Shown here piece after piece: positions 58,295 through 58,758 of a stretch of DNA of 64,000 bases. How positions within the stretch are numbered: the first letter of the stretch is position 1; every line of letters starts with the position of its first letter. The position numbers were made by a program, and so were the translations under genes. Below the pieces are notes generated by a model. The model did no database searches, had not been told where the DNA came from, and saw nothing but the letters and a program-made list of their open reading frames with translations. Origin of the DNA: Eledone cirrhosa (lineage: Eukaryota); the NCBI GenBank assembly GCA_964016885.1, contig OZ024740.1:349742001-349806000 (forward strand), read 5' to 3'.

Positions 58295-58758
58295 ATGTAA
58301 ACTATCGCCGTATTTTGACTAAAGAAATTAAAGAAATTATTTAGCCTGATAGTGGGGTTAAGAACCCTCGGAGAAATGGAAAAAGATGAGTATTGACGTA
58401 CATGGGAGTCGAACCCACATCTTTGGTTATCCGGAACACTGTGCTACCATTTACGCCAACACATCACCCGTCTTTTTCCATTCAAATTAGAAGCTATAAA
58501 CTTAGCGAGGGTTCTTAATTTGAATGGAAAAAGACGGGTGATGTGTTGGTGTAAATGTTATCACAGTGGTCTGGATAACCAAAGATGTGGGTTCGACTCC
58601 CATGTACGTCAATACTCATCTTTTTCCATTTCTCCGAGGGTTCTTAACCCCACTATTAGGCTAAATAATTTCTTTAATTTCTTTAGTCAAAATACGGCGA
58701 TAGTTTACATTTCTAATAATTTCAAACCCACTCGCTGTTTCGAAAATATTCTTACTTG
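58295..58758. mobile_element. Hairpin cassette (arms ~58295-58488 / 58517-58710) carrying tRNA-like sequences
   Basis: Inverted arms, one-sided tail, (TA)n flanks. Confidence 0.8.
58540..58611 (+). tRNA. tRNA-like cloverleaf (pseudo-tRNA or SINE head); inverted copy ~58394-58465(-)
   Basis: Acceptor GAUGUGU/GUACGUC+A, A-box TGGTGTAAATG, T-arm GTGGGTTCGACTCCCAT, TTTTT 9 nt downstream; isotype uncertain. Confidence 0.6.

What the first reader, a model, noticed from the sequence alone, without database searches (positions are those of the whole stretch)
58295..58758. Same hairpin architecture, but with a tRNA-like cloverleaf in place of the ribozyme
Seen: divergent inverted arms, a one-sided tail and (TA)n flanks, but no CUGANGA/GAAA core. 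Each arm holds a 72-nt tRNA-like fold clamped by its own long flanking helix (AATGGAAAAAGACGGGT 58523-58539 / ACTCATCTTTTTCCATT 58614-58630). Inference: a PLE-mobilised element that uses a tRNA mimic as an internal Pol III promoter or as an RNase P/RNase Z processing signal, substituting for self-cleavage. A tRNA SINE partnered with Penelope machinery would be unusual.
Basis: partly seen in the sequence, partly recalled or inferred. Interest (0 to 1): 0.78.

Follow-up and report, generated by a model that had tools for sequence, protein, structure and literature searches.

The report
Ribozyme-free tRNA-bearing Penelope hitchhiker
This is one copy of a 271-base repeat, present in thousands of copies, that carries a tRNA look-alike and no recognisable self-cutting ribozyme and was likely pasted in by Penelope-type retrotransposon enzymes; the tRNA part likely acts as its promoter, which would make it an unusual ribozyme-free relative of the known "retrozymes".

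Summary
Observation confirmed. The locus is one insertion of a 271-nt non-coding monomer (subfamily A; sisters B 290 nt and C 260 nt; 4706 exact hits of one shared 19-mer). Copies carry the Penelope-like (PLE) signature: partial head-to-tail tandems, an inverted 5'-truncated arm (33 of 66 insertions), two alternative 3' ends about 40-57 nt apart, (TA)n flanks (60 of 66) and no poly(A) (0 of 66). No hammerhead or HDV-like ribozyme is shared by A, B and C. The tRNA module and the clamp's 3' strand are the most conserved parts between subfamilies. 5' truncations pile up just 3' of the T loop (31 of 49 arms) but not at tRNA +1 (23 of 27 pass), so the template likely folds like a tRNA and likely has no free 5' end there. 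Best reading: a non-autonomous PLE parasite with a tRNA-derived Pol III promoter, whose clamp likely closes each unit into a ring-like template. RNase P/Z processing in place of self-cleavage is possible but untested. No partner PLE was identified and the clamp shows no compensatory change. Precedents exist (Schistosoma Sm-alpha, hammerhead-less Naiad/Chlamys, Cassandra/Helenus), so this is a new variant.

The parts
58286..58294 (.). Left (TA)n flank, the likely target microsatellite; it shares 2 nt with the arm end
   Evidence: sequence
58295..58508 (-). Inverted arm: monomer positions 9-222, ending at the short 3' end
58375..58391 (-). Clamp 3' strand of the left arm, with the T5 run
   Evidence: mirror of 58614-58630
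58394..58465 (-). tRNA-like module of the left arm
   Evidence: Rfam RF00005 25.7 bits, below the cut-off of 29
58466..58482 (-). Clamp 5' strand of the left arm
   Evidence: mirror of 58523-58539
58506..58518 (+). 13-nt junction piece from monomer 147-159, sharing a few bases with both arms (inferred template switch)
58516..58759 (+). Direct arm: monomer positions 28-271, ending at the long 3' end
58523..58539 (+). Clamp 5' strand (purine-rich leader); 13 of 17 positions invariant between A, B and C
58540..58611 (+). tRNA-like module: A box 58547-58558, B box 58590-58600; anticodon loop non-canonical and variable between subfamilies; D arm resembles host tRNA-Gln
58614..58630 (+). Clamp 3' strand with the T5 run (58621-58625), a predicted Pol III terminator; 17 of 17 invariant between A, B and C
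58694..58738 (+). Predicted body helix (58694-58700 with 58732-58738) enclosing the short 3' ends and an AC-rich loop; one compensatory pair; candidate recognition site for the PLE reverse transcriptase
58711..58759 (+). One-sided 49-nt tail between the short and long 3' ends
58760..58802 (.). Right (TA)n flank

Best explanation
The locus is one insertion of a high-copy 271-nt non-coding repeat that carries a tRNA-shaped module and no recognisable ribozyme, was likely copied into (TA)n by a Penelope-like (PLE) reverse transcriptase/endonuclease, and likely uses the tRNA's A and B boxes as a Pol III promoter, with the clamp helix predicted to close each unit into a ring-like template. Steps. 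(1, shown) Copies are partial tandems with an inverted arm, two alternative 3' ends and (TA)n flanks. (2, inferred, about 0.9) These are PLE target-primed insertions that start at two internal sites. (3, inferred, about 0.6) Pol III starts at the tRNA of one unit in a tandem, reads through the first T5 and stops at a later one, giving a little more than one unit with the tRNA at both ends. (4, predicted, about 0.45) The leader of unit n+1 pairs with the trailer of unit n and holds the ends together, so that the reverse transcriptase passes seamlessly into the preceding unit, by a jump or across a ligated joint. (5, breakpoints shown, cause inferred) The folded T arm stalls the enzyme and makes most short copies.
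For: Architecture: 33 of 66 insertions from three motif-anchored samples have an inverted arm, 60 have (TA)n on at least one side, 0 have poly(A). 3' ends fall at about 267-271 or 214-234 in A, with matching pairs of ends in B and C. This is the pattern described for PLEs (PMC8557442, passages), and the tail equals the distance between two internal start sites in vitro (PMC11167929). Four insertions are fused to PLE sequence without intervening TA: L043, L028, L159/L161 and L054. The genome is rich in GIY-YIG PLEs (10596 candidates, 150 scored). Conservation between the A/B/C consensuses: T arm 16/16, clamp 3' strand 17/17, D arm 18/19, anticodon and variable arm 20/22, against body 34/62 and tail 28/60. 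T5 is the only run of four or more T in A and B despite 10-11 TTT runs (85 and 52 of 2000 dinucleotide shuffles have none; four other hairpin elements of the window, three of them hammerhead-bearing, have 1-7). 31 of 49 arms entering tRNA position 72 end at 59-72 (6.1 per 100 nt against 0.86 elsewhere, p = 2.5e-14). 23 of 27 arms cross +1 to -17 at the background rate. Arms of one insertion share common variants in 39 of 65 (direct) and 59 of 103 (inverted) comparisons against 8.8% between insertions. The cross-unit clamp is predicted at 14-16 of 16 pairs in A, B and C.
Against: No partner PLE was found: the monomers do not match 69 PLE loci (best E 0.10), and the four fusions involve different families. 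The clamp and cloverleaf show 0 of 37 pairs changed on both sides and do not beat the shuffle control, so the clamp could be a relic of an old inversion. Subfamily C has a T4 run in its body. A T5 run 9 nt behind the tRNA should stop most Pol III molecules before the body, and the absence of 5' ends at the start site needs a very efficient jump or ligation. In B the top two acceptor pairs are broken in the standard register. 20 of the 31 hotspot ends are inversion junctions over short palindromes, so microhomology may inflate the peak. About 40% of variant comparisons within one insertion disagree, and rare variants are mostly unshared, so copying of a single circle is not shown.
Confidence: 0.45

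Rival explanations
1. The tRNA module is mainly a processing signal. RNase P (or RNase Z) cuts successive units of a multimer at the same site, the clamp holds the 5'-phosphate and 3'-OH ends together, and a host ligase seals a unit-length circle, doing the job that the hammerhead and RtcB do in retrozymes. This is compatible with the promoter role and would add to it.
For: No breakpoint excess or junction scar at tRNA +1 (23 of 27 arms pass). The five clamp pairs beyond the T5 run are invariant in 9 of 9 aligned copies, so the helix would matter in RNA that extends past the terminator. The T-arm stall suggests a folded elbow. The monomer size, 260-290 nt, lies in the 170-400 nt range of retrozyme circles (PMC7229834, abstract).
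Against: The acceptor stem is the least conserved part of the tRNA (4 of 7 on the 5' side) and is broken at the top in B. A long leader-trailer helix stacked on the acceptor stem may hinder cleavage (recalled, untested). There is no CCA at the putative RNase Z site. Hammerhead-less PLEs form tandems without any known processing signal (PMC8557442).
Confidence: 0.25
2. The template is an unprocessed multimer read through from tandem arrays such as the array on contig C28, by Pol II or leaky Pol III. The tRNA is at most a promoter, and the clamp is a frozen remnant of an old PLE inversion.
For: Long arrays exist (L031; eight 10-kb samples between C28:19.48 and 19.71 Mb are filled with B units). 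Unprocessed RNA was the dominant substrate in vitro (PMC11167929). No compensatory change in the clamp. About 40% discordance within insertions.
Against: It does not explain why the tRNA and the clamp 3' strand are much better conserved than the body although they abort about 60% of passing copies, nor the lack of T4 runs in A and B.
Confidence: 0.22
3. The monomer holds an unrecognised self-cleaving ribozyme and is an ordinary tRNA-headed retrozyme like Sm-alpha.
For: Non-canonical cores occur in this genome: a Hydra-like PLE has a U3/A8 hammerhead (variant described in PMC4209133).
Against: No exact C3/G8 or U3/A8 core on either strand, and no one-mismatch candidate shared by A, B and C. A relaxed HDV-like descriptor gave 3 overlapping hits in A and none in B or C. 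Rfam E-value scans found no ribozyme family.
Confidence: 0.05
4. It is an ordinary LINE-driven tRNA SINE or a DNA-level satellite or foldback, and the hairpin is secondary.
For: A decayed LINE-like fragment lies just left of the element (class judged by eye from the sequence), and satellite arrays exist.
Against: The tRNA sits inside a circularly permuted unit, not at a fixed 5' head. 0 of 66 insertions have poly(A), half are inverted, and 3' ends are fixed at two internal sites.
Confidence: 0.03

Closest known systems
Metazoan non-LTR retrozymes (Cervera and de la Pena 2020, PMC7229834; Li, Clavereau and Pollet 2026, bioRxiv 10.64898/2026.07.22.740005)
   Same: Non-coding tandem monomers of similar size and low GC, dispersed as monomers to multimers, proposed to be non-autonomous PLE derivatives.
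   Different: They are defined by a type I hammerhead in each unit. This element has none and has a tRNA module instead; circular RNA is shown for them and untested here.
Schistosoma Sm-alpha / Sj-alpha SINE-like repeats (as described in PMC6765202 and PMC2770079; the primary paper was not held)
   Same: tRNA-derived (tRNA-Gln-like), apparently Pol III-transcribed, tandem repeats in which an upstream unit transcribes the next. The D arm here also resembles tRNA-Gln.
   Different: Sm-alpha keeps an active hammerhead that frees the units. No clamp helix is mentioned in the passages I saw.
Hammerhead-less PLEs: Naiad, Chlamys and non-autonomous Chlamys such as MRC1 (Craig et al. 2021, PMC8557442)
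   Same: Partial tandems, inverted 5' copy, one-sided tail, microsatellite targets, no canonical hammerhead; non-autonomous head-to-tail forms exist.
   Different: No tRNA or Pol III module is reported, and the non-autonomous forms generally share 3' sequence with an autonomous family, which was not found here.
Cassandra, Helenus and Ajax (TRIMp3; Kojima 2024, PMC10886601)
   Same: A small-RNA-derived Pol III promoter inside a repeated terminal unit; Cassandra starts in one copy and terminates in the next.
   Different: They are LTR elements with a primer-binding site, a polypurine tract and target-site duplications, moved by Gypsy or Copia proteins.
tRNA SINEs, including octopus OK, OR1 and OR2 (named in PMC4824008 and PMC4758252; sequences not seen)
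   Same: tRNA-derived A and B boxes, high copy number.
   Different: SINEs have a 5' tRNA head and a LINE-like tail; OR1 and OR2 are listed as CORE-SINEs. This unit is permuted and inserts PLE-style. Identity with OK or with a Repbase/Dfam entry could not be checked.

Membership tests
Non-autonomous PLE derivative | Partial head-to-tail tandems with 5' truncation | tested here: met
Non-autonomous PLE derivative | Inverted 5'-truncated copy next to the direct copy | tested here: met
   33 of 66 insertions
Non-autonomous PLE derivative | One-sided tail / two alternative 3' ends | tested here: met
   long ends at about 267-271 and short ends at about 214-234 in A, parallel in B and C
Non-autonomous PLE derivative | AT-rich or (TA)n target, no poly(A) | tested here: met
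   60 of 66 with TA on at least one side, 0 of 66 with poly(A)
Non-autonomous PLE derivative | 3' sequence shared with an autonomous PLE family | tested here: inconclusive
   no match to 69 PLE loci; only part of the genome's PLE families was sampled, and no Naiad was seen among them
Non-autonomous PLE derivative | Mobilisation by a PLE protein in an assay | not testable with these tools
   needs an experiment
Non-LTR retrozyme | Type I hammerhead in each unit | tested here: not met
Non-LTR retrozyme | Non-coding tandem monomer of about 170-400 nt | tested here: met
   271, 290 and 260 nt
Non-LTR retrozyme | Unit-length circular RNA in vivo | not testable with these tools
   needs RNA data
tRNA SINE (SINE2) | tRNA-derived A and B boxes | tested here: met
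   kept in the A, B and C consensuses; function untested
tRNA SINE (SINE2) | tRNA at a fixed 5' head, LINE-like tail, poly(A) or simple-repeat end with target-site duplication | tested here: not met
   the tRNA is internal, 23 of 27 arms run past its 5' end, and there is no poly(A); duplications cannot be read inside (TA)n
Sm-alpha-type element | tRNA-derived Pol III promoter plus hammerhead | tested here: not met
   promoter boxes present, hammerhead absent
TRIMp3 (Cassandra/Helenus) | LTR-internal-LTR layout with primer-binding site, polypurine tract and target-site duplication | tested here: not met
   units abut directly with no internal region and insert with inversions; the primer-binding site and polypurine tract were not searched separately
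Functional tRNA gene | Canonical anticodon loop and conserved anticodon | tested here: not met
   the anticodon loop differs between A, B and C and has no conserved U33

The most novel reading that the evidence does not exclude
A class of PLE-mobilised retroelements in which a captured tRNA replaces the ribozyme outright. The tRNA serves as Pol III promoter and as RNase P (or Z) site, and a leader-trailer clamp formed across neighbouring units holds the cut ends for a host 5'-phosphate/3'-OH ligase, giving unit-length circular RNAs: a ribozyme-free retrozyme and a new route to circular RNA.
Probability: 0.25. Interest if true: 0.85.

Novelty: new variant of a known kind. Interest (0 to 1): 0.63.

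Why it matters
How PLEs make their tandem and inverted insertions, and what the hammerhead is for, are open questions. A short, young, high-copy parasite that inserts PLE-style without a hammerhead is a compact test substrate: a 270-nt dimer can show whether the template is a circle, a terminally redundant line or a multimer. It would extend captured Pol III promoters (SINEs for LINEs, Cassandra/Helenus for LTR elements) to PLE parasites without a ribozyme. The breakpoint map also records how a PLE reverse transcriptase stalls at a tRNA elbow. In practice, such repeats would be mislabelled as SINEs, satellites or tRNA genes.

Tried and rejected
Expression: no RNA holder was listed (5 runs, none on record as RNA), so RNA ends and circles could not be examined. 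Contigs of four of these runs were laid; they show A-, B- and C-like variants, and 5 and 4 low-depth records from a second organism (X4), too thin to build on. Degenerate hammerhead at the A 3' end (a GAAA half core): rejected, as it is absent in B and C. A CUGAUAG-like motif on the antisense strand: wrong core and opposite to the orientation inferred from the outward-pointing arms. HDV-like fold: only in A. Partner by shared 3' end: the 54 listed matches of an exclusion pattern read as TA flanks, inverted pieces and point variants, with no common foreign upstream sequence (judged from the printed matches, 30 loci fetched). L043 turned out to be a single chimera with a Hydra-like PLE at a 5-nt microhomology. 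L041 (20-nt match only) was not followed up. Other families with the same T arm but a different trailer: 21 hits, all variants, junctions or the C28 array. m1A58 misreading: A58 is changed in 6 of 92 insertions against 0-5 of 9-133 at other A positions, but nearby A76 and A80 reach 5 of 131, so this is not accepted as evidence. Single-circle test by rare shared variants: low power, mostly unshared. Parent tRNA: only tRNA-Gln genes were retrieved, by a pattern built on the D arm; only that arm matches and other isotypes were not compared. Pfam gave no family for three Hydra-like ORF pieces; clade labels rest on motifs compared by eye with the supplement of PMC8557442. The bacterial promoter scan is irrelevant here. 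One search had one row on the wrong strand and was redone. Rows left out before counts: L037, L040 and L107; overlapping loci were merged, and loci with no segment above the thresholds did not enter the 66; 31 of 120 anchors were dropped as overlapping; the 30 arms were not merged by insertion. Literature searches listed no paper whose title or abstract opening describes a hammerhead-less tRNA-bearing PLE parasite. Repbase, Dfam, Ohshima and Okada 1994, Ferbeyre 1998 and the bioRxiv supplements could not be seen and may bear on novelty.

Full report
Observation. The hairpin is real: arms 58290-58489 and 58516-58715 are 96% complementary over 200 nt. The right arm continues for a 49-nt tail to 58759, and both ends meet (TA)n. 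The right arm holds an Rfam tRNA match at 58540-58611, 43.9 bits; the left arm's copy at 58394-58465 scores 25.7, below the cut-off. The clamp is at the stated coordinates, and clamp plus tRNA folds better than 200 of 200 shuffles, z = -3.65.

What it is. A search of the 3.0-Gb own genome gave 92 matches from 40 of 2055 candidates. Tandem copies define a 271-272-nt monomer, and sampled copies differ from the consensus by 2.8% on average, in a sample that includes identity-selected loci. The window copy is monomer 9-222 inverted, a 13-nt piece of 147-159, and monomer 28-271 direct. Exact-motif counts, with reversed-pattern controls at 0, are 805 for the A 3' end, 4706 for a central 19-mer, 679 for a B leader motif, 2475 for a C motif and 1309 for a tRNA-core motif; these count motif matches, not insertions. 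Subfamilies B (290 nt) and C (260 nt) share the layout. B also fills all eight 10-kb samples taken between 19.48 and 19.71 Mb of contig C28. The repeat landscape recalls an octopus; this is my recollection and was not tested.

Insertion signature. Among 66 insertions from three motif-anchored samples, 33 have an inverted arm, 60 have (TA)n on at least one side, 45 on both, and none has poly(A). 3' ends cluster at about 267-271 or 214-234 in A, with parallel pairs in B and C. Craig et al. describe this set of features for PLEs: partial tandems, an inverted 5' copy, a one-sided tail and (TA)n targets, also in Naiads, which lack hammerheads (PMC8557442; passages, section 10, parts of the supplement). 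Frangieh et al. show that the tail is the distance between two internal start sites in an AC-rich stem-loop and that hammerhead cleavage is not needed in vitro (PMC11167929, parts 1-2 of 4). A predicted helix in the body encloses the short ends and an AC-rich loop and has one compensatory pair, U-A in 7 and C-G in 6 of 14 copies; this may be a single event. Of the junctions I inspected among 286 flanks, four insertions are joined to PLE sequence without TA: L043, L028 and L159/L161 to Hydra-like elements, and L054 to a Neptune/Nematis-like 3' region (clade labels by eye). They fit template switching within PLE reactions but could be deletions or nested insertions, and they name no single partner. 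The monomers match none of 69 PLE loci.

No ribozyme. There is no exact CUGANGA or U3/A8 core on either strand, no one-mismatch candidate is shared by A, B and C, and a relaxed HDV-like descriptor hits A only. Rfam E-value scans found tRNA and no ribozyme. The U3/A8 variant was tested because a Hydra-like PLE of this genome carries one (PMC4209133, passages).

The tRNA module. Between the three consensuses the T arm (16/16), clamp 3' strand (17/17), D arm (18/19) and anticodon/variable arm (20/22) are far better kept than the body (34/62) and tail (28/60); the acceptor 5' strand is 4/7. The anticodon loop itself varies, so the module does not decode. A and B boxes are kept in the consensuses, and a T5 run follows 9 nt behind the tRNA. 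It is the only run of four or more T in A and B (85 and 52 of 2000 shuffles do as well), but C has a T4 in its body, and A and B are not independent. The clamp changes only on its 5' strand, mainly A-U to G-U; 0 of 37 pairs of clamp and cloverleaf change on both sides, and the shuffle control is not beaten. The D arm resembles host tRNA-Gln genes; other isotypes were not compared.

What the breakpoints say about the template. With one arm per insertion (89 arms, 85 ends), 31 of 49 arms that enter tRNA position 72 end at 59-72, 6.1 per 100 nt against 0.86 elsewhere (p = 2.5e-14). Twenty of these are inversion junctions over short palindromes and 11 are not. This fits an enzyme stalling at a folded T arm, with microhomology as a contributing cause. 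At the tRNA's 5' boundary there is no excess: 23 of 27 arms cross +1 to -17, 0.84 per 100 nt against 0.89 in the body. So the template is unlikely to be a line with a free 5' end at an RNase P cut or a Pol III start, unless the enzyme jumps efficiently. Arms of one insertion share common variants far more often than different insertions do (39/65 and 59/103 against 8.8%), but about 40% disagree and rare variants are mostly unshared, so a single circle is not proven.

Mechanism. I commit to a non-autonomous PLE parasite (about 0.9) with a tRNA-derived Pol III promoter (about 0.6) and a clamp that closes the unit into a ring-like template (about 0.45). In a modelled transcript from the leader of one unit to the T5 of the next, the leader of unit n+1 is predicted to pair with the trailer of unit n (14-16 of 16 pairs in A, B and C), which would bring the two ends together. 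Cassandra is described as starting in one 5S copy and ending in the next (PMC10886601, passages), and RNA structure can assist Pol III termination at T tracts (bioRxiv 10.1101/2021.08.27.457903, abstract only). The weak point is read-through of the first T5. Covalent circularisation through RNase P or Z and a ligase (0.25) and plain multimers from arrays (0.22) remain open.

Comparison. It works like a non-LTR retrozyme (PMC7229834, passages; bioRxiv 10.64898/2026.07.22.740005, part 1 of 5 and passages) but fails the defining hammerhead test. The nearest precedent is Schistosoma Sm-alpha, a tRNA-Gln-like, apparently Pol III-transcribed tandem element that keeps a hammerhead (PMC6765202 and PMC2770079, passages). 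It is not an ordinary SINE; OR1 and OR2 are listed as CORE-SINEs (PMC4824008 and PMC4758252, passages) and their sequences were not seen. A recent octopus repeat annotation lists 893 unclassified active SINE families and, in the part and passages read, does not describe this layout (PMC13282606, part 1 of 3 and passages). Searches listed no description of a hammerhead-less, tRNA-bearing PLE parasite; Repbase, Dfam and the bioRxiv supplements were out of reach. Four unchecked notes of this scan report similar elements in other genomes; they are leads, not support.

Verdict. A real, young, high-copy element and a new variant of a known kind. Interest 0.63; 0.85 if tRNA processing is shown to make the circles.

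Noticed in passing
G000:C28 about 19.48-19.71 Mb (L253-L260, L211-L222): All eight 10-kb samples are filled with head-to-tail subfamily B monomers at about 95% identity: a satellite of probably 230 kb or more, and a candidate source array. Its ends were not mapped.
   Followed up: partly
L063-L081, 3' ends: A young Hydra-like PLE (RT, C-terminal GIY-YIG) with a complete type I hammerhead of the U3/A8 core variant and two 3' ends about 80 nt apart; its tail is often found in the same TA runs as this element.
   Followed up: partly
L043, L028, L159/L161, L054: Composite insertions joining this element to PLE sequence without TA; L054 also carries a piece of a short hammerhead element.
   Followed up: partly
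window 32097-34350 (-): Broken PLE-like ORF, 26-32% identical to Neptune/Nematis-like proteins of this genome.
   Followed up: no
window 1420-1700, 1800-1920, 18640-19120, 22100-22240 and others: Several families of short hammerhead-bearing PLE-type hairpin insertions in (TA)n.
   Followed up: no
window 35665-36190 and 49505-50064: Two copies of another hairpin family in (TA)n, with no full CUGANGA...GAAA match in the scan.
   Followed up: no
window 57000-58260: Decayed 3' part of a LINE-like element (RTE/CR1-type by eye) directly left of the insertion.
   Followed up: no
window 8464-11657: 57 copies of a 56-nt minisatellite that resembles part of an abundant SINE-like repeat of the window.
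   Followed up: no
G000:C1 168.21-168.28 Mb and C6 47.25-47.30 Mb: Clusters of tRNA-Gln genes; some copies read CTA at the anticodon, which ARAGORN labels Pyl.
   Followed up: no
L233, L235, L237, L248, L251: Further variants between A and C, suggesting more subfamilies than the three characterised.
   Followed up: partly
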